A DNA stretch of 63,010 nt from Candidatus Ratteibacteria bacterium (GTDB lineage: Bacteria; CAIJMQ01), in the NCBI GenBank assembly GCA_028715665.1, contig JAQURI010000001.1:1-63010 (forward strand). The letters run 5' to 3'. The notes under the pieces are model-generated. The model ran no database searches. It was given only the letters and a program-made list of their open reading frames with translations, and was not told the DNA's origin. This document shows positions 1-55,934 of this stretch, piece after piece. Both the position numbers and the translations under genes were made by a program. Within the stretch, counting starts at the first letter, position 1. Every line of letters begins with the position of its first letter.

Positions 1-1
1 A

Positions 2-127
2 AACGGTATTACATTATTACAATCAGCAAATACATTATTAATAGATGTGGTTGGGCGGGGTACGCTCCTTCCCGTACTGAAGTACAGGGTATCCGCTACC
101 CCTGCACCCCACGGAGGAACACAATGA
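2..127 (+). CDS. 3' end of an upstream gene (partial, hypothetical)
   Basis: The frame is open from the window edge to TGA at 125-127, which overlaps the next ATG (ATGA). The C-terminus reads ...PAPHGGTQ. Confidence 0.3.
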   Translation, partial: NGITLLQSANTLLIDVVGRGTLLPVLKYRVSATPAPHGGTQ

Positions 128-7463: not shown

Positions 7464-8175
7464 TCGAGTTGATTGGGTAGAGCCTGCCCTTTCATCACTG
7501 CAATACGACAAAGTTATCTTTCTTGGAGATTATTTTGATGATTTTTACGATAATCTTGATGACATAAAGAAGGTTGCAAAATGGCTCAAACAATCTCTGC
7601 CAAAGCCAGACAGAATTCATCTGTGTGGAACGCATGACATGTGGTATAGGTTTCCTAATAATCCATACCTCCAAGCAAGTGGCAATACAATGCAAAAATT
7701 GAATGTAATAAACCAGATTCTTACGGATGATGATTGGAATTTATTGAGATTATACTATTATGAACAGGGTTTCCTGTTAACACATGCGGGAGTGCATTCA
7801 TTCCTTTTCGGAAATAATAATTTGAGTATACAAGAAATGCTTAATCTGATAAAATCTGAAACCGAGAAAGCATTGCAAGATGTCAAGAATGGTAAAATAA
7901 ATCCGTGTCTGGACGCTGGATTTGCCAGAAGAGGCGGGCAGGTAGTTGGAGGCATAACGTGGTTGGATTGGCATGATGAATTTGAACCAGTGCCTCATTT
8001 AAATCAGATAGTTGGACACACAGAGTTAAAGAAACCGGAAAAGAAAATCACAGAGAATAGCGAGAATTATTGCCTAGATACAAAAAATAAGCATATAGGA
8101 ATACTTAAGAATGGGATATTTACATTCGTGGGGTCAAGGGGTAAAAATCGCCCCGTGCCTTCAAGCTGGGGCTGA
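7432..8175 (+). CDS. Metallophosphoesterase (calcineurin-like); last ~15 codons lie in an IS left-end relic
   Basis: Motifs ISDLHNR, GDYFDD, GTHD, THAG and VGHTE. The 3' end (8130-8175) is encoded by the IS200/IS605 LE-like repeat. Confidence 0.8.
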   Translation: MKTIIISDLHNRVDWVEPALSSLQYDKVIFLGDYFDDFYDNLDDIKKVAKWLKQSLPKPDRIHLCGTHDMWYRFPNNPYLQASGNTMQKLNVINQILTDDDWNLLRLYYYEQGFLLTHAGVHSFLFGNNNLSIQEMLNLIKSETEKALQDVKNGKINPCLDAGFARRGGQVVGGITWLDWHDEFEPVPHLNQIVGHTELKKPEKKITENSENYCLDTKNKHIGILKNGIFTFVGSRGKNRPVPSSWG

Positions 8176-8198
8176 ATCATATCCCTTGGAATAGTAAC
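8130..8198 (+). repeat. IS200/IS605 left-end (LE) relic, copy A
   Basis: GGGGTCAAGGGGTAAAAATCGCCCCGTGCCTTCAAGCTGGGGCTGAATCATATCCCTTGGAATAG aligns nearly base for base with 14392-14462. It also aligns with the reverse complement of 20630-20697, the LE of the complete IS. The GC hairpin is retained. Confidence 0.7.
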
Positions 8199-8300: not shown

Positions 8301-8346
8301 CTCAGTTTGGGCATATATCCTTTTCCGGTATGTACGTACAGAAGGC

Positions 8347-10269: not shown

Positions 10270-10300
10270 GGGGTCAAATGGTAGAGAACCATCAGCCCCC
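10270..10300 (+). repeat. Truncated IS200/IS605 LE relic, copy C
   Basis: GGGGTCAAATGGTAGAGAACCATCAGCCCCC shares GGGGT...GGTAGAGAA with the LE of the complete IS. It starts 8 nt after the stop of the upstream gene. Confidence 0.45.
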
Positions 10301-10361
10301 ACACGTTCAATTGACCTACACATTCAGGACTAACCAGAACTCTTTTGTACGTACAGCCGCC

Positions 10362-12615: not shown

Positions 12616-13103
12616 AACCGGATAGAAGTTTAATAGGGAACGAATTTATTAAAGAGTGGATAAACAACAGCAAAACATACAGGAAGATACTGGAACACAG
12701 GAAGACATGCAAAAAACAACGCCGGGGCAAGTTTTGTATAGAGTGCACGGGTGGAGATTTAGAAGATGTTGTAATGGATTTTGAACACGAAATACTGAAC
12801 GAGATGAATTTTGAATGGGACTGTACACAAAGAACTGACAGATTCATGAGTTATATGCGTTTACGTGTAACTACAGTTATGCCGAAGAGCTTGCAGGACA
12901 CAGTATATAAAGAAATTATGGATTATATAAAAGACCTTAAAGGGAACAATGCACTAAGAACTGACATATTCATGATGTGTATGCGTTTACGGGCAACTTT
13001 AGCCGTGCCAAAGAGCTTGAAGGACGCAGCGGACAAGGAAATTATAGATTATATCACAGACTTAACCCATAAAGGCCAGAGCGAAGAAATTGAGGTATCA
13101 TAA
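12612..13103 (+). CDS. Hypothetical protein with internal 42-aa tandem duplication
   Basis: ATGA overlap upstream. Contains CKKQRRGKFCIEC and the repeat units FMSYMRLRVTTVMPKSLQD..EIMDYIKDL / FMMCMRLRATLAVPKSLKD..EIIDYITDL. Confidence 0.5.
   Translation: MKPDRSLIGNEFIKEWINNSKTYRKILEHRKTCKKQRRGKFCIECTGGDLEDVVMDFEHEILNEMNFEWDCTQRTDRFMSYMRLRVTTVMPKSLQDTVYKEIMDYIKDLKGNNALRTDIFMMCMRLRATLAVPKSLKDAADKEIIDYITDLTHKGQSEEIEVS
12831..13082 (+). repeat. Two diverged in-frame 126-nt tandem units
   Basis: AGAACTGACA recurs at 12831 and 12957 (period 126 nt). Roughly 70 percent identity by eye over about 105 nt. Confidence 0.7.
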
Positions 13104-14392
13104 TGGGAATAAGAAAGGAAGCACTAAAAACAATCGATAGGATAATAAGTTCAAAAGAATTCACGAGCACACTCGCCCCGGTTCTGCAATATTTACCAAT
13201 CGGGCAAATTAAAAAGAATATCATCAAGAACAAAATAGAATCGATTCAGGGATGCCGGATTGTCTCCTCATCACCGTACAGGGCAATAATCAATACCTCA
13301 AATACCTGTAATTACAGGTGCAAGATATGTGAAATTCATTTCTTGCACAAAAAATATCCGGTACACTATCCAAACGCCATAGACCTTATGGCGTTTAAAA
13401 ACATGAACCAGATTTTAGAGAATTTATATTTACTGGAGTTTTTCGGAAATGTGGGGGAGCCACTAACGAACCCGGATTTTGTGAATATTGTTAGATACAT
13501 CAAGCAAAGGTTTGGAACACGGTTGTTCCTGAACACGAACGGTTCCTTATTGAATTCATCAATGGCAAGTTCATTGATTACGGAAAAATTCGATGAAATA
13601 TTAATATCGTTACATGCAGCATCAGAAGAGACATACTCAAAGTTGATTGGAGGAGATTTTAAACGAGTAGTTGATAATATTGCAACCATATCAGCAATCA
13701 AGAAACAATACCGAGAAAAAAAACCGGAAATCGGGATTGCTTTTGCATTAAATCAAATCAATGAACGGGAAGTCGAAGATATTGTATGTCTGGCATACAA
13801 ACTAAAAGCAAATTATCTTCAAGTTTCTCATTATTATCATGGATTAAACGGAATGGAAAAAGATATATCTTTTATGAATATGAGTCCGTGTGGGAACTAC
13901 AAAGTCAATGCCATATATGATTTTGCCAAGTTCATAGGGCACTTAAAAAGAAAAGAACTAACGGTACTTCCAAAAAAGAGACCGTATTTGGATGAAGAAG
14001 AACCTGAGACCCCAAACTGCTATGCTCCATGGAATACGATAAAGATGGATGGGTGTATAGAATACCAGAACAGCCACTATATTTCCGTTTGTAACAGGAT
14101 AACTTTGTTCAGGTTAGATTATACAGAATTCGACTTCAATGGATTCCACGAGACTCTATGGAATCATCCATATCTCCAGTACATGAGAGCAACGGTAAAT
14201 TCAAAAGAACAGAATCCAATATGCCGGCTCTGCAAGAATCCAGAGAATCATAAATTAAGGAATACAGATAACGTAGAATATAGAAGACGCAGGGATGAAG
14301 CAATGCAGCAATTCTGGGAATTGGCTGAGAGTTACTTGAAAGCCCCGGAAATAAAAGGAATACACATCATTAAACAGAACCCATACACGTAG
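13103..14392 (+). CDS. Radical SAM protein with Cys-rich (SPASM-like) C-terminal region
   Basis: CNYRCKIC (CX3CX2C) near residue 70. The C-terminal part carries extra cysteines: CYAPW..DGC..CNR..CRLC. Confidence 0.85.
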   Translation: MGIRKEALKTIDRIISSKEFTSTLAPVLQYLPIGQIKKNIIKNKIESIQGCRIVSSSPYRAIINTSNTCNYRCKICEIHFLHKKYPVHYPNAIDLMAFKNMNQILENLYLLEFFGNVGEPLTNPDFVNIVRYIKQRFGTRLFLNTNGSLLNSSMASSLITEKFDEILISLHAASEETYSKLIGGDFKRVVDNIATISAIKKQYREKKPEIGIAFALNQINEREVEDIVCLAYKLKANYLQVSHYYHGLNGMEKDISFMNMSPCGNYKVNAIYDFAKFIGHLKRKELTVLPKKRPYLDEEEPETPNCYAPWNTIKMDGCIEYQNSHYISVCNRITLFRLDYTEFDFNGFHETLWNHPYLQYMRATVNSKEQNPICRLCKNPENHKLRNTDNVEYRRRRDEAMQQFWELAESYLKAPEIKGIHIIKQNPYT

Positions 14393-15701
14393 GGGTCAAG
14401 GGGTAGAAATCGCCCCGTGCCTTGAGGCCGGGGCTGAATCGTACCCCTTGGAATAGCAACACCATTGACCGATACCTTTATCGCAATTATGTTTCAAAGG
14501 ACTACAAAGAATGAAAAAAACATACCAGTTCAGGCTATACCCGACGAAAACCCAAGAAGTAACACTGACTAGGACTCTTAGTACGTGCAGGCACCTGTAC
14601 AATAATGCTCTTTCCGAGCGAAGGAAGCAGGCAACTTCAAACACAGTATTGAGACTGCTTCAGGTCTTCCCATGGGGAAAACCGGACTGGGTAACTAAGA
14701 ACGACCAGATGTTAAGCTTGACTGAAACAAAGACCGAGCATCAGTCCGAGGTTTACACACAGGTCTTACAGGATGTAATCAAACGTGTAGACAGGAGTTT
14801 CAAGAATTTCTTTAATGGCTTCGGCTATCCTCGTTTTCATGGCAGGAACCGGTACAACAGTTTCACGTATCCCCAACTGGGCTTCTCACTCAACTCCGGG
14901 AAATTAACCCTTTCAAAAATCGGCGGTATCAAGTTAATGCAGCACCGGAAAATAGAAGGAACAATCAAAACATGCACAATTAAAAAAGACATCGACCGAT
15001 GGTATGTTACTTTTTCCTGTGAAATAGAATCTCCCGTACCGGTTGAAATCAAAACCAGAACCGGGATAGATGTAGGCTTGATAGATTTAATCACATTAAG
15101 CAACGGTGAACAGGTAAAACCCCCGAAATTTCTGCGAGCATCAGAAAGCAAACTGATACAGGAACAGAGACGATTAAACCGTAAAAAGAAGGGTTCAGGA
15201 AAGAGGAACCGGCAAAAGATAATAGTAGCCAAGGTACACAGGAAAATCAGGAACCAGCGAAAAGACTTTGCTCATAAGCTATCGAGACAACTGGTCGATA
15301 GCTATGACCTGATAAAATTCGAAGATTTGCAAATAACGAATATGGTTCAGAACCATCATGTTGCAAAAAGCATAAGTGATGCTGGCTGGTATCAGTTGAT
15401 GAATTTTACGGACTACAAAGCAGGATACGCTGGTAAGTTCGTAGAATTCGTAAATCCATCCGGAACAAGTCAGACCTGTACCTGTGGTTTCGGTGTAGCA
15501 AAAGACCTGTCAGTAAGGATACACCGTTGTCCTTCCTGCGGTCTTGTAATGGGACGAGACCAAGTATCAGCGATATTGATAGAAAACAGGAATTCAGTAT
15601 ATACCGTAGGAACTACGGAAATCAAAGCCCGTCGAGGACTCTCACGAACAAGAGAGCCGATGCAGCGGGACGCCCAAGCCATTCAGGGTCGGGCAGTTCA
15701 C
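14392..15701 (+). mobile_element. tnpA-less IS200/IS605-family unit (LE + internal promoter cassette + tnpB + RE)
   Basis: The LE at 14392-14462 is homologous to the LE of the complete IS, with hairpin GCCCCGTGCC-TTGA-GGCCGGGGC at 14412-14434. An imperfect RE hairpin lies at 15672-15694, and the terminus AGTTCAC (15695-15701) is identical to the RE terminus of the complete IS. Joining the flanks gives a tidy stop-SD-start junction. Confidence 0.75.
14466..14498 (+). promoter_or_regulatory. Conserved promoter-like cassette, copy 3 (inside the tnpB unit)
   Basis: Sequence TGACCGATACCTTTATCGCAATTATGTTTCAAA. The tnpB ATG at 14511 lies 22 nt after the cassette's internal ATG. Confidence 0.6.
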
Positions 15702-15716
15702 GGAGGAGGAACATAA
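14511..15716 (+). CDS. tnpB: TnpB (IS200/IS605 OrfB, RNA-guided RuvC nuclease)
   Basis: KTYQFRLYPT N-terminus; RuvC residues in GIDVGLIDL, KFEDLQI and GRDQVSA; zinc finger CTCG...CPSCG. About 60 percent identical by eye to the second copy. Confidence 0.9.
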   Translation: MKKTYQFRLYPTKTQEVTLTRTLSTCRHLYNNALSERRKQATSNTVLRLLQVFPWGKPDWVTKNDQMLSLTETKTEHQSEVYTQVLQDVIKRVDRSFKNFFNGFGYPRFHGRNRYNSFTYPQLGFSLNSGKLTLSKIGGIKLMQHRKIEGTIKTCTIKKDIDRWYVTFSCEIESPVPVEIKTRTGIDVGLIDLITLSNGEQVKPPKFLRASESKLIQEQRRLNRKKKGSGKRNRQKIIVAKVHRKIRNQRKDFAHKLSRQLVDSYDLIKFEDLQITNMVQNHHVAKSISDAGWYQLMNFTDYKAGYAGKFVEFVNPSGTSQTCTCGFGVAKDLSVRIHRCPSCGLVMGRDQVSAILIENRNSVYTVGTTEIKARRGLSRTREPMQRDAQAIQGRAVHGGGT

Positions 15717-16153
15717 TGATACTCTTAGGAGTAAGAATTATAAAAACGGCTGCTGAGGTGTTTATGCACCGGGACGACATGAAGAAATACAGGCAACTAA
15801 ATATCAGCTATGAATTTTCTATGGATGAATTAGCGATAGATAGGCTGAAATTAAACGGGGCGGATAAAGTGGTAGGAATTCCATACAGTTTCTCAATAAT
15901 ATACACTAACCCTTCAATGGGGCGTTTAAATTATCAAGGAGAAGTTGACTGCCAAAACAATAACCAAACCGATGAGAGAACTGAAGAAGATTTACGGAAT
16001 GAAATAGCTTATAATATAACACTCAATATTTTACCGGTGGCGTTAATTGCGAGTACGTCTCTGGGTCTTCCACCCCCATTCCCTCTCCCAGCCCCACCAA
16101 GAAGAGAAACAACGAAAAAAGACGACTATGAAGAAATCAGGGGATACGGATGA
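15716..16153 (+). CDS. Hypothetical protein (Pro-rich C-terminus)
   Basis: The ATG at 15716 overlaps the tnpB stop (TAATG), preceded by GGAGGAGGA. 145 aa. Confidence 0.5.
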   Translation: MILLGVRIIKTAAEVFMHRDDMKKYRQLNISYEFSMDELAIDRLKLNGADKVVGIPYSFSIIYTNPSMGRLNYQGEVDCQNNNQTDERTEEDLRNEIAYNITLNILPVALIASTSLGLPPPFPLPAPPRRETTKKDDYEEIRGYG

Positions 16154-18988: not shown

Positions 18989-18993
18989 GTGAA

Positions 18994-20172
18994 CTACCAC
19001 CCTACAAGTAGGGTGGCTTCCTGCTTCATCATGTCTATGCTTAGACCACTCTTGCAGGCTTCAATTCCCGCAGTTCCTGCGGTACATCTATCCAGAACTA
19101 CATTAGCTGCATTGGTATCTCTGTTCTCAACATTCCCACACTGGTTGCATCGAAATACTCTATCCCTCAATGTCATTTTCTGTTTGTTCCCACACACATG
19201 ACAGGTCTGTGATGTTCCCGCAGCTATACAGAGCTTAACCTGCTTCCCAGCTTCTTCCGCTTTGGATGCTGTTAAGGTCTGTAGTTGATACCATCCTGCG
19301 TCCATGATGGATTTCGCAAGATGATGATTCTGAACCATGTTTTTGATTTGTAAGTTCTCGAATGCGATTAAATCGAATCTGGTAACGAGTGTACGTGCAG
19401 TCTTATGAGCGAAATCCTTTCTCTGGTTTCGGATTTTCTGATGTATTTTTGCTACTGTGAGTTTCTGTTTCTTCCTGTTATTCGACCTGAGTTTCTTCTT
19501 TGCCAATCGTCTCTGTTCCTTTGCAAGTTTGTTTTCTGATTGTCTCAGGAACTTCGGGGGCTTGACCATTTCCCCGGTATTTAATGTAAGAAGGTCGGTT
19601 AATCCGACATCTATTCCGACCATTGTAACCACAGGTACTTTCTCAACTGCCTTATTCATCTCAACCGTGAATATCGCATACCATCGGTCAACGTCTCTCT
19701 TGATAGTACATGTTTTGATATTCCCCTTAATGTTCCGATGAAGGATTATCCGTATTGTTCCTATCTTTGAGAGATTGAGTTTTCCAGATTCAATTGTTGC
19801 TCCGCTCTGGGGATACGTGAATGAATCATACCTGTTCATTCCCTTGAATCGGGGAAAACCTGAACCACGAAAGAAGTTATCAATGCTCTTATTGACTCTC
19901 TTTAACACGTTCTGGAGAATCTGTGAATGTACTTCTTTCTGGAAGGAGTCTTTGCACGCTGCAAGCGTATTAGCTTGGTCTTCGTAATATATCCATTCTG
20001 GTTTGCCCCACGGGAATACCTGAAGAGTTTGTCTCAGTCTATTAAGCTCTATGCGTCGTTTCCGTTCTGCAAGAGCGTCGTTATAGAGATGCCTGCACGT
20101 GTTCAGAGTCTTGACCATAGTTACTTCTTGGTTCTTGGTTGGATATATACTGAACACGTAGGCTTTTTTCAT
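18994..20172 (-). CDS. tnpB: TnpB (IS200/IS605 OrfB, RNA-guided RuvC nuclease)
   Basis: RuvC residues in GIDVGLTDL, AFENLQI and NRDTNAANV; zinc finger CHVCG...CNQCG. Confidence 0.9.
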   Translation of the reverse strand: MKKAYVFSIYPTKNQEVTMVKTLNTCRHLYNDALAERKRRIELNRLRQTLQVFPWGKPEWIYYEDQANTLAACKDSFQKEVHSQILQNVLKRVNKSIDNFFRGSGFPRFKGMNRYDSFTYPQSGATIESGKLNLSKIGTIRIILHRNIKGNIKTCTIKRDVDRWYAIFTVEMNKAVEKVPVVTMVGIDVGLTDLLTLNTGEMVKPPKFLRQSENKLAKEQRRLAKKKLRSNNRKKQKLTVAKIHQKIRNQRKDFAHKTARTLVTRFDLIAFENLQIKNMVQNHHLAKSIMDAGWYQLQTLTASKAEEAGKQVKLCIAAGTSQTCHVCGNKQKMTLRDRVFRCNQCGNVENRDTNAANVVLDRCTAGTAGIEACKSGLSIDMMKQEATLLVGW

Positions 20173-20226
20173 TGGGTATTGTATATACCTATAGGTTTAT
20201 ATGTTTTGTGGTATATATAGAGCGAT

Positions 20227-20619
20227 ATGGGAAAAACAAGCTCATGCATCTACAACATCAATTATCACCTTATCTGGTGCCCAAAATATAGAAAACCAAT
20301 ACTTGAAGAACCGAAAGTCAAAACGTTTCTTGAAGACCAGTTACAGACAATAGCTGATGCGAAAGAATATGAAATTCTCGAACTTCAAGTCATGCCAGAC
20401 CATATTCACTTATTCATTTCTGCTAAACCGTTTGAAGCTCCAACTGATATTGTTAAGGTCTTTAAAGGGGTAACAGCATTACGGTTGTTCAAGAAGTTCC
20501 CTGAATTGAAAGAACAATATTGGAGAGGGAAACTATGGTCTCCAAGCTATTATGTCGGAACTGCCGGAACAGTATCAGCGGAAACTATTAAGATGTATAT
20601 TCAAAATCAGAAAGGATGA
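20227..20619 (+). CDS. tnpA: TnpA (IS200-type Y1/HUH transposase)
   Basis: HUH motif in PDHIHLFISAKP and catalytic-Tyr region SPSYYVGTAG. 130 aa. Confidence 0.9.
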   Translation: MGKTSSCIYNINYHLIWCPKYRKPILEEPKVKTFLEDQLQTIADAKEYEILELQVMPDHIHLFISAKPFEAPTDIVKVFKGVTALRLFKKFPELKEQYWRGKLWSPSYYVGTAGTVSAETIKMYIQNQKG

Positions 20620-20713
20620 GGGGCAGTATGTCGCTATGCAGGGGGGTACGATTCATCCACCGGACGAGTCCGGTGGTATTCTCTACCCCTCTACCCCACA
20701 TTATAAATACAAC

Positions 20714-28903: not shown

Positions 28904-28953
28904 GAATCAAAGAAATAAAACATAAAGTAGATAAAGATATCGGGAAACTCCAA

Positions 28954-28986
28954 CGACCGATACCTTTATCGTAATTATGTTTCAAA
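28954..28986 (+). promoter_or_regulatory. Conserved promoter-like cassette, copy 5
   Basis: Sequence CGACCGATACCTTTATCGTAATTATGTTTCAAA. The start codon at 28999 lies 22 nt after the internal ATG. The cassette sits in a divergent intergenic region. Confidence 0.6.
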
Positions 28987-28998
28987 AGGCCAACAAAC

Positions 28999-29823
28999 AT
29001 GAAAACTATAGGTATAATTGGAACCGGCATTATGGGAACCCAACTTACGTGCTTCTTCCTTAGCAGGGGATTCAAAGTCATTGTGAAAACCCACACAGAG
29101 AATAATACTGAGGAACAAATTAAAAAAATAGGAGCGAGAATAAACAAATATTATCCAGGTGGTATTCCGTTAAATAATATTGTTATAACATCAGATTTCA
29201 AAAAATTAAGAGATGTAGACCTTGTAATCGATTGCATAATCGAGAATTTGACCGCAAAACAGGAACTATTCCAAATACTCGAAAAAACATGTTCAAGAAA
29301 AACGATTTTTGCATCGAATACATCCTCAATATCAATAAACAAGATAGCATTACCAACAGACAGGTTAAAACAGACAGTGGTAATCCATTTCTTCAATCCG
29401 GTCGAAAAAATGCATCTGGTAGAAATAAATGCCGGGGCAATAACAACAGTCGAAACTATCGACAAAGCAGTGGAATTAGTAAAATCGCTCGGTAAAACCC
29501 CGATAGTAATGAGGAATATACCGGGTGGAATCGTTAATCGGTTATTGTTTGCATCAATAAACGAAGCTGGTTACATGCTCGAAGAGACAGGATTAACAAT
29601 AAAGAACATTGACGCAGCAATGAAGCTGGGATTAAATCATCCGATGGGTCTGCTGGAATTAGCAGACTTTATTGGATTGGATACTGTTTATAACATATTA
29701 ACAACGTTCAATTCAACAATCGCAGGGTTCAAACCTCCCGCACGAATATTCGAACAAATGATAGAACAGGGAAAATTAGGAAGGAAAACAGGAAGTGGAT
29801 TTTATGAATATAAAAAAGAATAA
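28999..29823 (+). CDS. 3-hydroxyacyl-CoA dehydrogenase (NAD-binding, HBD-like)
   Basis: IGIIGTGIMGTQ Rossmann motif, plus the conserved HFFNPV and NRLL regions of 3-hydroxybutyryl-CoA dehydrogenases. Confidence 0.85.
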   Translation: MKTIGIIGTGIMGTQLTCFFLSRGFKVIVKTHTENNTEEQIKKIGARINKYYPGGIPLNNIVITSDFKKLRDVDLVIDCIIENLTAKQELFQILEKTCSRKTIFASNTSSISINKIALPTDRLKQTVVIHFFNPVEKMHLVEINAGAITTVETIDKAVELVKSLGKTPIVMRNIPGGIVNRLLFASINEAGYMLEETGLTIKNIDAAMKLGLNHPMGLLELADFIGLDTVYNILTTFNSTIAGFKPPARIFEQMIEQGKLGRKTGSGFYEYKKE

Positions 29824-31131: not shown

Positions 31132-32288
31132 ACAAGCTGGCATTCACCAACCCGATATACGTTACCCGTCCATTATTACCAGACCTAAAAGACCTGATGG
31201 CCAGACTACAGGAAGTATGGGATTCTCAATGGTTAACGAATTTCGGAGCACAGCACAAGCTCTTAGAACAGAGATTAACAAAGCTTTTGAAAGTACAGAA
31301 CGTTTCACTATTCAATAACGGGACGATAGCACTCATCACAGCCTGCCAGAGTCTGAGATTATCGGGCGAAGTAATAACGACCCCCTTCACATTCGCAGCC
31401 ACCCCACATGTTTTAACGTGGAACGGCATCAAACCCATTTTCTGTGATATCAATCCAGAGACGATGAACATAGACGAAACAAAGATTGAATCCATGATTA
31501 CCCCTGAGACCACAGGTATCCTTGGAGTTCATGTATTCGGCGTTCCATGCAACGTTAAGGTGATTCAGGACATTGCAGACAGGTACGGCCTTAAAGTCAT
31601 ATACGATGCTGCACATGCATTCCAGTGTGAAATAAACGATATCGGAATTGGAAATTTCGGGGACATTACGATGTTCAGTTTCCATGCAACCAAATTATTT
31701 CATACAGGGGAAGGTGGAGCACTTACATTCAAAGACCACAATCTAAAACAGAGACTTGATTTACTCAAGAATTTCGGGATAAAGAATGAAGAAGAAGTTG
31801 TCATGCCGGGCATAAACGGAAAGATGAATGAAATTCAGGCTGCACTGGGTCTAGCGGTCTTGGACATCCTGAATGAGGAACATATTAAAAGAGAGCGACT
31901 GCTTGAAGTGTACCGTGAACAACTCAGCGATGTGGATGGAATCACATTTCAGAAGGAGTTAAAATCAGTAACGCAGTCTAGTAATCAGTATTTCGTTATA
32001 AGAATCAATGAAAACCGCTTCGGAACATCAAGAAATACAGTCCATGACCGGCTAAAAAAGTATAATGTAATTGCCCGGAAATATTTTTATCCACTATGTA
32101 GCGATTATACCTGTTATCGTCATTTACCATCATCGAAAAAAGAGAATTTACCGGTTGCCAATATGGTAGTAAATGAAACACTGGCACTTCCATTATACGG
32201 AAGATTGACTGAAGATGACGTGATAAAGATTTGTGACATCATAAAACAGGAGTCGCCGTCAATCCCTGCACCCCACGGAGGACTATAA
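31128..32288 (+). CDS. DegT/DnrJ/EryC1-family PLP-dependent sugar aminotransferase
   Basis: YDAAHAF and SFHATKLFHTGEGGAL (PLP-lysine) motifs. 386 aa. Confidence 0.9.
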   Translation: MNKLAFTNPIYVTRPLLPDLKDLMARLQEVWDSQWLTNFGAQHKLLEQRLTKLLKVQNVSLFNNGTIALITACQSLRLSGEVITTPFTFAATPHVLTWNGIKPIFCDINPETMNIDETKIESMITPETTGILGVHVFGVPCNVKVIQDIADRYGLKVIYDAAHAFQCEINDIGIGNFGDITMFSFHATKLFHTGEGGALTFKDHNLKQRLDLLKNFGIKNEEEVVMPGINGKMNEIQAALGLAVLDILNEEHIKRERLLEVYREQLSDVDGITFQKELKSVTQSSNQYFVIRINENRFGTSRNTVHDRLKKYNVIARKYFYPLCSDYTCYRHLPSSKKENLPVANMVVNETLALPLYGRLTEDDVIKICDIIKQESPSIPAPHGGL

Positions 32289-33133
32289 TGAAACTGGGAA
32301 TCGTTTGCCCAATCGGAAATCTCAAAGAGCATGGTTATCATCATATCAGCGATACGGTACTTCAATCATTCTGTGATTTTGCAGATAAAGTATTATTGAT
32401 TTCAACAACGGAAACCCCCGGAACAATAAACAATAAAAATCCAAAAATACAATTAATATCCACGAATGAGACATGGTTTAAAGATAATCGATATTCCATG
32501 GAGGGGCTGGTAAATAATTGCAATATTGGAATGAAAATACTGATTGATGACGGGTTCGATGTTGTAATGTTCTTATCGATTAATCAGTATATACCGAGTA
32601 CGAATTTCGAGAATATCAAGAATTATATTCAAGACTTTTTAGAGCAAGACAAGCCCCATACATATCTTTATAAAATGTATCAGTATATTTCGGATTTATA
32701 TGATGCTGATACTAGATTACCATGGATTTTGAATTTACATCATAATACATCTGTATTTGCTGCGGATTCATTAATAATATCAAAAAAACTGTGGTTCCTA
32801 ACATACAAAAGAACAGAAAAAATCAGGAACGCGGATTATAAAAAATATAATAATATTGCGATTGTAGATGTGGTTGGAGAACTCACAAAAGAAGAAGCTG
32901 CGAGATTATGGACGTTCGTAGGCGACGGACAGGGTTATTATCATAAAAAGTTATACGCTGATAACAATGGGAATTACGAACATTCTCAAATGTTAAAGCA
33001 ATTCAAAACCAAACTCCAGCGCAGGAACATAAGTTCAAAACCGCTTGATATTTATGGGAAGATTATCAGTGACGGTAGCAGTTTAAACTATATCAGTCAC
33101 GAACTTTTTACCGGAACGAGGATAAAACCATGA
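32288..33133 (+). CDS. Hypothetical protein
   Basis: 281-aa ORF, translationally coupled between the aminotransferase and aglB. Confidence 0.55.
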   Translation: MKLGIVCPIGNLKEHGYHHISDTVLQSFCDFADKVLLISTTETPGTINNKNPKIQLISTNETWFKDNRYSMEGLVNNCNIGMKILIDDGFDVVMFLSINQYIPSTNFENIKNYIQDFLEQDKPHTYLYKMYQYISDLYDADTRLPWILNLHHNTSVFAADSLIISKKLWFLTYKRTEKIRNADYKKYNNIAIVDVVGELTKEEAARLWTFVGDGQGYYHKKLYADNNGNYEHSQMLKQFKTKLQRRNISSKPLDIYGKIISDGSSLNYISHELFTGTRIKP

Positions 33134-52918: not shown

Positions 52919-53575
52919 ATGAACAGCCAAGCACTCCACCCGGAACATTGTTCACACGGAGCATTATTACAGCGTGGCTGGACTGAAGCCGGGATAAAAC
53001 GATTCTTAAAAGCCCCGGACAAGACAGCTCCAAACCCTCATTACAGGCGGGGTGCGGATATGAAACTATATTTACTTACACGGGTAGAATCAATGGAAAA
53101 AAGTGAAGAATACCTGATTTTCTGTAAAAAAAATAAGACACGAAAGCAAGGGGCAATAAGTGCGGTCAGGACAAAGAAAGAAAAGCTTCTCAGGGATGTA
53201 GCAGGATGGGAGATTCACATTACCCGCCAGAACCTCACAGATGTCCTACAGGACGCAATCTCCTCATATAACGAGCGAAGGGCTGACCGGAGCGAAGATG
53301 GGTTCATATACGAACCTGCATCGTTAAATTCAGATAAAGAGTTCCTTTACAGGATAACGGTCAACTTCTTACGTCATCGATGCAGCCCGTATGAACGAAA
53401 GCTCACTGAAACGGCAGGTAAAGTAGGAACAAAAGAAGCATATATCCTGCTGAACCAGAACATATTCAAGAGGATATCCCATATCTTTCCTGAGCTTCAG
53501 GCAGAATGCGATAGGCAGTTAGAAGAAAAAATAAGACAATATCTCGAAGAATCCAACAATCTGCACGTACATTAG
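52919..53575 (+). CDS. Hypothetical protein
   Basis: 218-aa ORF. The segment ITVNFLRHRCSPYERKL faintly recalls DUF2293-type proteins (weak). Confidence 0.55.
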   Translation: MNSQALHPEHCSHGALLQRGWTEAGIKRFLKAPDKTAPNPHYRRGADMKLYLLTRVESMEKSEEYLIFCKKNKTRKQGAISAVRTKKEKLLRDVAGWEIHITRQNLTDVLQDAISSYNERRADRSEDGFIYEPASLNSDKEFLYRITVNFLRHRCSPYERKLTETAGKVGTKEAYILLNQNIFKRISHIFPELQAECDRQLEEKIRQYLEESNNLHVH

Positions 53576-55810: not shown

Positions 55811-55934
55811 TTTGGCAACTGGGCAAAACGTCATCATAAGTGGCAAGGTATTCCGAAATATATAAAAGGACATTATAGACGAAGAAAAAAAGACAGCGCC
55901 AGCACAGTCCGAGGAAACTGTATGTACAGTAACC

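What the first reader, a model, noticed from the sequence alone, without database searches (positions are those of the whole stretch)
14392..15716. tnpA-less TnpB unit with intact ends that carries the conserved cassette as its own promoter
The left end (14392-14462) aligns with the LE of the complete IS and shows compensatory changes in the hairpin (GCCCCG..CGGGGC versus CCACCGGA..TCCGGTGG). The right end finishes with the identical AGTTCAC (15695-15701). Joining the flanks gives ..CACGTAG + GGAGGAGGAACATAATG, a normal stop-SD-start operon junction, so the 1.3-kb unit is an insertion between the radical SAM gene and the next gene.

Instead of tnpA, the space between LE and tnpB holds cassette copy 3. 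The RuvC D/E/D residues and the zinc finger look intact. The predicted guide (GGAGGAGGAACATAATGAT..) covers the SD and start of the downstream gene, and 15 nt of it (GGAGGAACATAATGA) recur at 1998-2012. Whether that has any regulatory meaning is speculative.
Basis: partly seen in the sequence, partly recalled or inferred. Interest (0 to 1): 0.6.

Follow-up and report, generated by a model that had tools for sequence, protein, structure and literature searches.

The report
TnpB-only transposon with borrowed promoter
This is a small transposase-less jumping gene that encodes the RNA-guided nuclease TnpB and sits inside an archaeal sugar-coat operon; its own promoter has been swapped for the promoter that its host DNA uses about 19 times, an unusual detail on an otherwise ordinary element.

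Summary
Window 14387-15701 (1,315 bp) is a tnpB-only IS200/IS605 element of the IS1341 type.

- **TnpB:** it looks intact. The RuvC residues D187/E271/D350 and the CxC...CxxC zinc motif are present, and that zinc motif is shared by the whole clade.
- **Ends:** about 35 relatives, mostly in Methanoperedens, end at the same AGTTCAC.
- **No tnpA is normal:** only 4 of 79 related loci carry tnpA.
- **Left boundary:** It follows the target motif CATAC, whose last base pairs with a left-end guide base (26 of 30 copies).
- **Original junction:** it was therefore ...NPY|GGGT* with a TAATG overlap, not CACGTAG+GGAGG.
- **Right-end hairpin:** it has one A:C mismatch.
- **15-nt recurrence:** it lies at 2001-2015, is a ribosome-site/start junction, and has no target motif.

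The one unusual feature is also real. All 48 related heads examined carry other sequence between the left end and tnpB (28 share one conserved promoter/leader); here the cassette replaces it.

The cassette core occurs in only 1 of 284 Methanosarcinales genomes, again directly behind a transposon left end, in front of a different TnpB lineage.

No empty site, second copy or expression data could be found. This scan noted a similar borrowed-promoter tnpB element on other DNA (e1-3018753).

The parts
13103..14392 (+). Radical SAM gene. Its last two codons (ACG TAG, 14387-14392) are supplied by the transposon left end.
   Evidence: ORF list and Pfam Radical_SAM. The codon phase was read directly.
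14382..14386 (+). Target-adjacent motif (TAM, the left cleavage site), CATAC.
   Evidence: A TTAN/ATAC motif lies 3-8 nt upstream of the GGGG anchor in 28 of 31 relatives' left flanks under the rule, against 8 of 31 control positions. Its last base is Watson-Crick complementary to the left-end base just 5' of the hairpin in 26 of 30 copies, with three pair types. Here the pair is C with G.
14387..14462 (+). Left end (LE): ACGTA, then GGGGTCAAGGGGTAGAAATC, a hairpin (GCCCCG-T-GCC TTGA GGC CGGGGC), then TGAATCGTACCCCTTGGAATAGCAAC.
   Evidence: Alignments. Single-stranded DNA fold of -20.3 kcal/mol, z = -4.05. 83-89% identical to Methanoperedens left ends. 90% identical to the solo left end at 8130-8198.
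14467..14493 (+). Cassette copy GACCGATACCTTTATCGCAATTATGTT, an archaeal core-promoter-like motif that includes the CGATA-N4-TATCG palindrome around TTTAT.
   Evidence: 26 of 27 matches to the consensus. There are 19 copies in the assembly, all on C1, C2 and C7. In 10 of 19 a start codon lies 14-17 nt downstream. It is not similar to the native tnpB promoter beyond shuffled controls.
14494..14510 (+). 17-nt leader between the cassette and the tnpB ATG. It resembles the leader of the cassette-driven gene at 28999.
   Evidence: 14458-14517 versus 28946-29005: 82-85% identity over 60 nt, including ATGAAAA.
14511..15716 (+). tnpB (401 aa). The last four codons (GGA GGA GGA ACA) and the stop lie outside the right end, in host sequence. 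The stop overlaps the next gene's ATG (TAATG).
   Evidence: Pfam. Matches PDB 8bf8/8exa, the ISDra2 TnpB, at E = 7e-52 with D187/E271/D350 aligned. 72-77% identical to Methanoperedens TnpBs, with all invariant columns kept.
15520..15701 (+). Predicted omega-RNA scaffold overlapping the 3' end of tnpB. The 5' limit is approximate.
   Evidence: Consensus fold of 29 copies: 16 of 28 pairs show compensatory changes. The window copy fits apart from one A:C pair in the terminal stem. No Rfam family matches.
15673..15701 (+). Right-end (RE) hairpin GCCCAAGCC ATTCA GGGTCGGGC followed by AGTTCAC, the right cleavage site.
   Evidence: AGTTCAC ends 35 of the 46 copies examined (33 of 44 relatives plus both window elements), and their flanks diverge immediately after it. 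The hairpin is weaker here.
15702..15721 (+). Predicted guide GGAGGAGGAACATAATGATA, which is the ribosome-binding site and start of the downstream gene.
   Evidence: The boundary rule comes from relatives and from S. islandicus TnpB7, where the guide starts right after UUCAC (PMC11043419). No other site with a TAM plus a guide match exists in the assembly.
15716..16153 (+). Downstream gene (145 aa, no Pfam hit), followed by a polysaccharide deacetylase gene at 16150.
8130..8198 (+). Solo left end of the same subfamily (90% identical), preceded by TTTAC.
10270..10300 (+). Truncated left-end relic (GGGGTCAAATGGTAGAGAACCATCAGCCC).
18989..20702 (-). Complete IS605-type element: tnpA at 20227-20619 on the plus strand, and a tnpB 55-57% identical to the unit's. 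Its TAM is TTTAT and its right end abuts a cassette.
   Evidence: Y1_Tnp, E = 4e-41.

Best explanation
Window 14387-15701 is a non-autonomous, tnpB-only IS200/IS605 element of the IS1341 type.

**Insertion.** It inserted 3' of a CATAC motif, exactly after the TAC codon near the end of a radical SAM gene, inside a same-direction glycosylation operon. Before insertion the radical SAM gene probably ended ...NPYGGGT*, with its stop overlapping the next gene's ATG.

**Consequences for neighbours.** The element now supplies a new Thr-stop to the radical SAM gene. Its own tnpB frame runs out through the right end into those four old codons and the old stop. The stop/start overlap with the downstream gene is therefore kept.

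**How it works.** It encodes an apparently active RNA-guided nuclease and an omega-RNA scaffold. The guide is the 16-20 nt after AGTTCAC. As in other TnpB elements, that guide would direct cleavage of an emptied site (CATAC + GGAGGAGG...) and so favour retention of the element. Movement needs a TnpA supplied in trans.

**What is unusual.** The roughly 55-nt promoter/leader that relatives carry between the left end and tnpB has been replaced. In its place is a copy of the 27-nt promoter cassette plus leader that heads about 19 genes on this replicon. tnpB is therefore most likely transcribed from that promoter together with that gene set. The same promoter also reads on into the downstream operon genes.

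**Shown:** the anatomy, the boundaries, the replacement, and the intact catalytic residues.

**Inferred:** promoter activity, the direction of capture (from replicon to transposon), nuclease activity and mobility.
For: **Identity**
- Pfam domains.
- The catalytic triad aligns with that of ISDra2 TnpB.
- 72-78% identity to a large Methanoperedens TnpB clade.

**Boundaries**
- AGTTCAC ends 33 of 44 relatives examined, with unrelated flanks after it.
- A TAM-like TTAN/ATAC lies upstream of the left end in 28 of 31 relatives against 8 of 31 control positions.
- The last TAM base pairs with a left-end guide base in 26 of 30 copies, with T-A, C-G and G-C pairs (permutation p < 5e-5).
- The left end folds strongly as single-stranded DNA (z = -4.05).
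- The left-end hairpin and the omega-RNA both covary.

**tnpA-less state is ancestral**
- tnpA is present at only 4 of 79 related loci.
- The distance from the left-end anchor to the ATG is -119 here and about -100 to -125 in the commonest head type.

**Promoter replacement**
- Of 48 related heads, 28 have the ACTTTCAC...GATATATAA... head, most of the rest share a second head type, and none has the cassette.
- The cassette and the native head show no similarity beyond shuffles.
- The copy in the element is 26/27 to the cassette consensus and 82-85% identical over 60 nt to the copy at 28946-29005.

**The cassette behaves as a promoter**
- There are 19 copies, all pointing at a downstream gene. 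In 10 a start codon lies 14-17 nt away. This puts the ATG about 32-35 nt from TTTAT, the same geometry as the native tnpB head.

**The flank is not a cassette-type gene start**
- GGAGGAGG-N-TAATG is the same operon-internal junction as at 2001-2015, where the upstream gene ends NGGT*.

**Second instance**
- The 19-mer CCTTTATCGTAATTATGTT occurs in 1 of 284 Methanosarcinales genomes.
- There it directly follows a left end of another subfamily and lies 18 nt before a truncated TnpB of a 505-aa type.
Against: - No empty site, circle junction or second copy of this exact unit was found, so insertion and mobility rest on boundary comparison only.
- The right-end hairpin has an A:C mismatch, which could impair excision or the omega-RNA.
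- The only tnpA on these contigs belongs to an element with different hairpin sequences.
- The mechanism of the promoter swap is unknown. The only hint is micro-homology at ATGAAA.
- The contig appears to belong to a different replicon from most of the bin. Copy numbers in the true host are therefore unknown.
Confidence: 0.78

Rival explanations
1. The cassette is transposon-borne in origin. On this view, heads made of a left end plus cassette seeded the promoters of the island's genes, and tnpB and the right end were later lost, leaving left-end relics upstream of cassettes. The tnpB copy would then carry its native promoter.
For: - Left-end relics lie 62-149 nt upstream of two other cassettes, at 8130 and 10270.
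- A complete IS abuts a fourth cassette.
- The only cassette core found outside this assembly sits in a transposon head.
- Head modules are clearly exchanged between TnpB lineages: L126 and L115 share a head.
Against: - 15 of 19 cassettes have no left-end-like sequence nearby.
- Several cassettes carry an extra TGTACGTACA palindrome that the transposon copy lacks.
- At the relics the left end and cassette are 62-149 nt apart, not adjacent.
- None of 48 related transposon heads has the cassette.
- 283 of 284 Methanosarcinales genomes, which are full of these transposons, lack it.
Confidence: 0.1
2. The left end at 14387-14462 is a relic of an older insertion, and the cassette was the native promoter of a host gene at this site. 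tnpB plus the right end arrived separately and became fused to the cassette by deletion. On this view the 1.3-kb stretch is not one mobile unit.
For: - Solo left ends upstream of cassettes exist at 8130 and 10270.
- No second copy of the unit is known.
Against: - The left end is complete and its guide base matches its own flank.
- The spacing from left end to ATG equals that of intact relatives.
- The sequence after the right end is a ribosome-site-coupled junction that continues the radical SAM frame (NPY|GGGT*). That leaves no room for a former cassette-driven gene.
- The same arrangement of left end directly followed by cassette occurs on another transposon in another genome.
Confidence: 0.07
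3. TnpB has been domesticated as an RNA-guided regulator, like the TldR proteins, of the downstream gene whose ribosome site and start codon it 'targets'.
For: - The guide covers the ribosome-binding site and ATG of the next gene.
- tnpB is wired to the replicon's promoter set.
Against: - Every TnpB guide equals its right flank by construction.
- The catalytic D/E/D residues are intact, unlike in TldR.
- The local target is preceded by TTCAC, which abolishes cleavage in the related TnpB7 system (PMC11043419).
- The 2001-2015 look-alike mismatches guide positions 1-3 and has no TAM.
Confidence: 0.03

Closest known systems
IS1341-group (tnpB-only) elements of the IS200/IS605 family, as summarised in PMC10691335 (most OMEGA-carrying transposons are non-autonomous)
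   Same: A single tnpB gene. Subterminal hairpin ends without inverted repeats. Insertion 3' of a short motif. An omega-RNA overlapping the 3' end of tnpB. Dependence on a TnpA supplied in trans.
   Different: The internal promoter/leader is not the one conserved in its clade. It is a copy of the resident replicon's repeated promoter. Only one copy is known.
Sulfolobus islandicus REY15A IS605-type TnpB7 (PMC11043419)
   Same: An archaeal element whose right end finishes in (T)TCAC, with the guide starting immediately after. The TAM is TTTAA-like with important T at -3. Here it is TTAY/ATAC, also with T at -3 and A at -2. In TnpB7 a native TTCAC-flanked target is not cut.
   Different: Sequence similarity was not measured here. 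The TAM for this clade was inferred from flanks, not tested. TnpB7 was studied with engineered promoters.
ISDra2 TnpB (PDB 8bf8/8exa/8h1j; PMC8612924, PMC10097598)
   Same: Full-length alignment (E = 7e-52) with the catalytic D191/E278/D361 equivalents and a zinc finger.
   Different: ISDra2 is autonomous (it has tnpA). Its TAM is TTGAT. Its first zinc knuckle is CxxC, whereas this clade has CxC.
Methanoperedens TnpB elements shared with Borgs, viruses and other extrachromosomal elements (bioRxiv 10.1101/2023.08.02.551345)
   Same: Nearest relatives (72-78% amino-acid identity) with the same left and right ends. That study reports TnpB exchange between hosts and their extrachromosomal elements.
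   Different: Those elements carry their own head types. None of 48 heads examined has the cassette.

Membership tests
IS200/IS605 family, IS1341 (tnpB-only) group | TnpB protein with the RuvC D-E-D triad and a zinc finger | tested here: met
   Pfam OrfB_IS605, Cas12f1-like TNB and HTH. D187/E271/D350 align with ISDra2 D191/E278/D361. These residues are invariant in the clade alignment.
IS200/IS605 family, IS1341 (tnpB-only) group | No transposase gene between the ends | tested here: met
   Only 124 nt separate the left boundary from the tnpB ATG. tnpA is present at only 4 of 79 related loci.
IS200/IS605 family, IS1341 (tnpB-only) group | Subterminal hairpins at both ends, with no terminal inverted repeats | tested here: met
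   Left-end hairpin z = -4.05, with compensatory changes across 31 copies. The right-end hairpin is present but has one A:C mismatch and a weak fold.
IS200/IS605 family, IS1341 (tnpB-only) group | Insertion 3' of a conserved 4-5 nt cleavage site that pairs with a guide sequence next to the hairpin | tested here: met
   TTAN/ATAC lies upstream of 28 of 31 relatives' left ends. Its last base is complementary to the left-end guide base in 26 of 30 copies. Here the motif is CATAC, paired with G.
IS200/IS605 family, IS1341 (tnpB-only) group | Omega-RNA scaffold at the 3' end of tnpB that stops at the right-end boundary | tested here: met
   16 of 28 consensus pairs show compensatory changes in 29 copies, and the window copy fits.
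IS200/IS605 family, IS1341 (tnpB-only) group | Evidence of transposition (several copies, an empty site or a circle junction) | tested here: inconclusive
   One copy in the assembly. No orthologous empty site was found. Relatives sit at many unrelated sites.
IS200/IS605 family, IS1341 (tnpB-only) group | RNA-guided, TAM-dependent DNA cleavage | not testable with these tools
   Needs biochemistry.
TldR-type nuclease-dead TnpB regulators | Loss of RuvC catalytic residues, with the guide directed at a host promoter or gene | tested here: not met
   The triad is intact. The guide equals the right flank, as in any TnpB element. No TAM lies at the local or the 2001-2015 site.
Archaeal BRE/TATA core promoter (the cassette) | An AT-rich TATA-like box about 25-35 nt upstream of the transcription start or start codon, oriented toward a gene | tested here: inconclusive
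   All 19 copies point at a downstream gene, and 10 of 19 have a start codon 14-17 nt after the cassette. Transcription starts could not be mapped.

The most novel reading that the evidence does not exclude
The stretch between the left end and tnpB is an exchangeable 'head' module. TnpB-only transposons of Methanoperedens-type archaea and their extrachromosomal elements swap promoter/leader heads between TnpB lineages. This one captured the resident replicon's own regulon promoter, so the nuclease is expressed with that replicon's gene programme. The captured head then travelled on a second TnpB lineage into a Methanoperedens genome. Decayed heads of this kind (left end plus promoter) could also hand ready-made promoters to host genes.
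Probability: 0.3. Interest if true: 0.55.

Novelty: new variant of a known kind. Interest (0 to 1): 0.4.

Why it matters
How TnpB elements set their own expression level is poorly understood, yet expression level decides whether the nuclease helps the transposon persist or harms the host. This locus shows a clean natural case in which the element's conserved promoter was exchanged for the promoter family of the DNA it lives on. There is also a second, independent-looking occurrence on another TnpB lineage.

If the swap is functional, it shows that TnpB-only elements adapt to a new replicon by rewiring transcription and not by changing the nuclease. It would also give a simple marker (head type) for tracing exchange between archaeal hosts and their extrachromosomal elements.

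The corrected target motif (TTAY/ATAC) and its covariation with the left-end guide base give usable design rules for testing this TnpB clade.

Tried and rejected
**Searches that found nothing**
- Empty site:
  - The radical SAM protein has no close orthologue in 40 relatives.
  - The JGI metagenome scan gave only a 24%-identical hit.
  - Exact-protein look-ups for TnpB and the radical SAM protein were empty.
- Rfam: no relevant family in 14300-15800.
- Plasmid and phage collections: no match to the left end plus cassette head.
- IMG/VR: no exact cassette 19-mer.
- Same family and class as the bin: neither the element nor the cassette is present.

**Ideas tested and rejected**
- Homology between the cassette and the native tnpB promoter. 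The local alignment score is below the shuffle mean.
- Off-target sites for the guide. Nothing with fewer than 3 mismatches exists, and none has a TAM.
- Degeneration of the zinc finger. The CxC knuckle is shared by the whole clade.
- A cassette head in the closest TnpB relatives (77-78% identical). All have native heads.
- A right-end remnant after the solo left end at 8130, which would make it a MITE (a miniature element with ends but no gene). No similarity was found.

The sigma-70 promoter scan was not used, because the organism is an archaeon.
Full report
**What is there**

Window 14511-15716 encodes a 401-aa protein with the three Pfam domains of TnpB: HTH_OrfB_IS605, OrfB_IS605 and Cas12f1-like TNB. 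It aligns over its full length with the solved ISDra2 TnpB (8bf8/8exa, E = 7e-52). Counting along that alignment, D187, E271 and D350 fall on ISDra2 D191, E278 and D361.

The first zinc knuckle is CxC rather than CxxC. This holds in all ten close relatives aligned, so it is a clade trait and not damage.

A second TnpB, 55-57% identical, lies at 18997-20172 on the minus strand. It sits next to a Y1 transposase gene at 20227-20619 (Y1_Tnp, E = 4e-41). Together these make up the complete IS.

**Relatives set the context**

A scan of species-representative genomes returned 79 loci. Most are in Methanoperedens, and the closest are 71-76% identical in protein. The large protein database holds nothing closer than 78%.

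In these relatives the conserved left-end sequence GGGGTCAAGGGGTAGAG...hairpin...ATGAATCGTACCCCTTG lies about 100-165 nt upstream of the tnpB ATG. Only 4 of 79 loci have a tnpA next to tnpB. A tnpA-less unit is therefore the normal form of this clade, the IS1341 group. This agrees with the published view that most such transposons are non-autonomous (PMC10691335).

**Right boundary**

In 33 of 44 relatives examined, as in both window elements, the element ends with (T/C)AGTTCAC, and the flanks are unrelated from the next base on. The window unit ends with the same heptamer at 15695-15701.

This matches the experimentally studied S. islandicus TnpB7. There the RNA ends in UUCAC, the guide starts immediately after it, the TAM is TTTAA, and a TTCAC-flanked native target is not cut (PMC11043419).

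A consensus fold of the last 190 nt of 29 copies gives 28 pairs, 16 of them with compensatory changes. The window copy fits apart from one A:C pair in the terminal stem. As single-stranded DNA that right-end hairpin folds weakly (z = -0.55), whereas that of the complete IS gives -3.49. 'Intact ends' is therefore slightly too generous for the right end.

**Left boundary**

The relatives show a conserved TTAY, TTAG or ATAC motif 3-8 nt upstream of the GGGG anchor in 28 of 31 flanks, against 8 of 31 at a control offset. Pairs of copies at different sites lose similarity just upstream of that motif.

The last base of the motif is Watson-Crick complementary to the left-end base immediately 5' of the hairpin in 26 of 30 copies. 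The pairs are T-A (14 copies), C-G (10) and G-C (2); no permutation out of 20,000 reached this count, though related copies are not independent. From established knowledge of IS608, this is the pairing between cleavage site and guide sequence that IS200/IS605 transposases use.

For the window unit the motif is CATAC (14382-14386), paired with G. The element therefore spans 14387-15701, which is 1,315 bp. Both boundaries fall on codon boundaries.

The reconstructed pre-insertion junction is AAC CCA TAC|GGA GGA GGA ACA TAA TG. This gives a radical SAM C-terminus of NPYGGGT*, with its stop overlapping the next gene's ATG. The same design is seen at 2001-2015, where a gene ends NGGT* with TAATG.

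After insertion, the left end supplies ACG TAG to the radical SAM gene. The tnpB frame runs through the right end into the old GGGT* tail and keeps the TAATG overlap.

**The cassette**

GACCGATACCTTTATCGTAATTATGTT occurs 19 times in the assembly, with up to 6 mismatches. All copies are on contigs C1, C2 and C7, and every copy points at a downstream gene. Ten copies have a start codon 14-17 nt downstream. This puts the ATG 32-35 nt after TTTAT. The native tnpB heads of the relatives show the same geometry: ATATATAA, then the ATG at +32. That suggests short-leader or leaderless transcripts.

The copy inside the unit (14467-14493) matches the consensus at 26 of 27 positions and keeps the CGATA-N4-TATCG palindrome. 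It is 82-85% identical over 60 nt to the copy at 28946-29005, including the leader and ATGAAAA.

**The cassette replaced the native head**

Similarity of the left end to relatives runs to about 14460 (GGAATAGCAAC). In 28 of 48 related heads the next roughly 55 nt are ACTTTCACNCCACT..TATCATAAGCGATATATAATCTAAAAATAATGTCGATGCTGC. Most of the others carry a second, longer head type. None carries the cassette.

The cassette region and the native head are no more alike than shuffled sequence: score 11 against a shuffle mean of 13. The three closest TnpBs in the big protein collection (77-78% identical) also have native heads.

**A second head with the cassette**

A BLAST of the head against the fetched loci hit L066, from Methanoperedens sp. 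MnB_21. There a left end of a different subfamily is followed directly by CCTTTATCGTAATTATGTTGCAAAGAGCAAAGAAACA-GTG.

The downstream gene is an internally deleted member of a TnpB lineage of about 505 aa (Cas12f1-like TNB domain).

The 19-mer, allowing one mismatch, occurs in only that one genome out of 284 genomes of the order. It is absent from the bin's own family and class.

Head modules are evidently exchanged between lineages. L126 (401-aa type) and L115 (505-aa type) share the second head type.

Because the cassette is common as a gene promoter on this replicon, but is a singleton among hundreds of transposon-rich genomes, capture from the replicon into a transposon is the more economical direction. 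The reverse direction is kept as a rival.

**What the guide does not imply**

The predicted guide (15702-15721) covers the ribosome site and ATG of the next gene only because every TnpB guide copies its right flank. The local target is preceded by TTCAC, not by a TAM. The look-alike at 2001-2015 (not 1998-2012) mismatches guide positions 1-3 and has no TAM. No other candidate site exists in the assembly.

**Limits**

- No empty site or second copy was found.
- C1, C2 and C7 are tetranucleotide outliers within the bin.
- The window's AglB has no match in two same-genus genomes but is 47% identical to Methanoperedens proteins.
- C2 and C7 encode an RNA ligase, a salactin-type actin, a HerA-like ATPase and an IscB.
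- These contigs therefore probably belong to a separate, possibly extrachromosomal, replicon of a methane-cycling archaeon. Earlier notes of this scan suggested the same for another piece of this genome. Counts for the 'own genome' should be read with that in mind.

**Verdict**

This is an ordinary IS1341-type TnpB element with corrected boundaries. Its one distinctive feature is well supported: a borrowed promoter head. This scan recorded a comparable borrowed-promoter tnpB element on other DNA (e1-3018753; I did not check it).

Noticed in passing
window 1-124; G000 contig C7 8689-10188 and 23025-23102: An IscB gene (RRXRR + HNH, 500 aa) is complete on C7. A second copy is split across contig ends: its first 26 residues lie at the end of C7 and its last 41 residues (100% identical) at the start of the window. 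C7 and C1 are therefore probably adjacent, with the assembly broken at this repeat.
   Followed up: partly
window 100-127 and 32264-32291; C7 10174: The 28-nt sequence CCCTGCACCCCACGGAGGA..AATGA forms the 3' end of the IscB ORF (..PAPHGGTQ*). It recurs at the end of an unrelated 386-aa ORF (..PAPHGGL*) at 32264-32291. This may be a relic of an IscB element end that now supplies a gene's C-terminus and the next gene's ribosome-binding site.
   Followed up: no
contigs C1 (the whole window), C2 and C7 of the assembly: The three contigs that carry the cassette are the main tetranucleotide outliers in the bin. The window's AglB has no match in two same-genus genomes but is 47% identical to Methanoperedens proteins. 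C2 and C7 encode a T4-type RNA ligase, a salactin, a HerA-like ATPase and an IscB. Together this suggests a mis-binned or extrachromosomal replicon.
   Followed up: partly
window 8331-8340, 10346-10355, 53562-53571, 55919-55928 (also on C2 and C7): About seven cassette copies carry a perfect or near-perfect palindrome, TGTACGTACA, 8-9 nt upstream of the cassette. This is likely an operator for a regulator. The transposon-borne copy lacks it.
   Followed up: no
loci L025, L029-L031, L034-L036, L042, L054, L055, L126, and L115 (505-aa TnpB type): A second conserved head type in Methanoperedens elements has a hairpin (CCTATCCC...GGGATAGG) and a duplicated TTGTCGAG..TGC box between the left end and tnpB. 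It is shared by two different TnpB lineages. It may be a structured leader or an operator.
   Followed up: no
L066 1690-1760 and about 60 nt upstream (Methanoperedens sp. MnB_21): The left end with the cassette is itself preceded by a hairpin, CCACCGGACAAGTCCGGTGG, of the type found in the window's complete IS. An HNH-domain ORF and a truncated tnpB lie just upstream. The site is a nest of IS200/IS605 debris.
   Followed up: no
window 28916-28943 versus 28955-28981: Two cassette-like boxes in opposite orientation form a divergent promoter region. It lies between the minus-strand sugar-modification genes and the 3-hydroxyacyl-CoA dehydrogenase gene.
   Followed up: no
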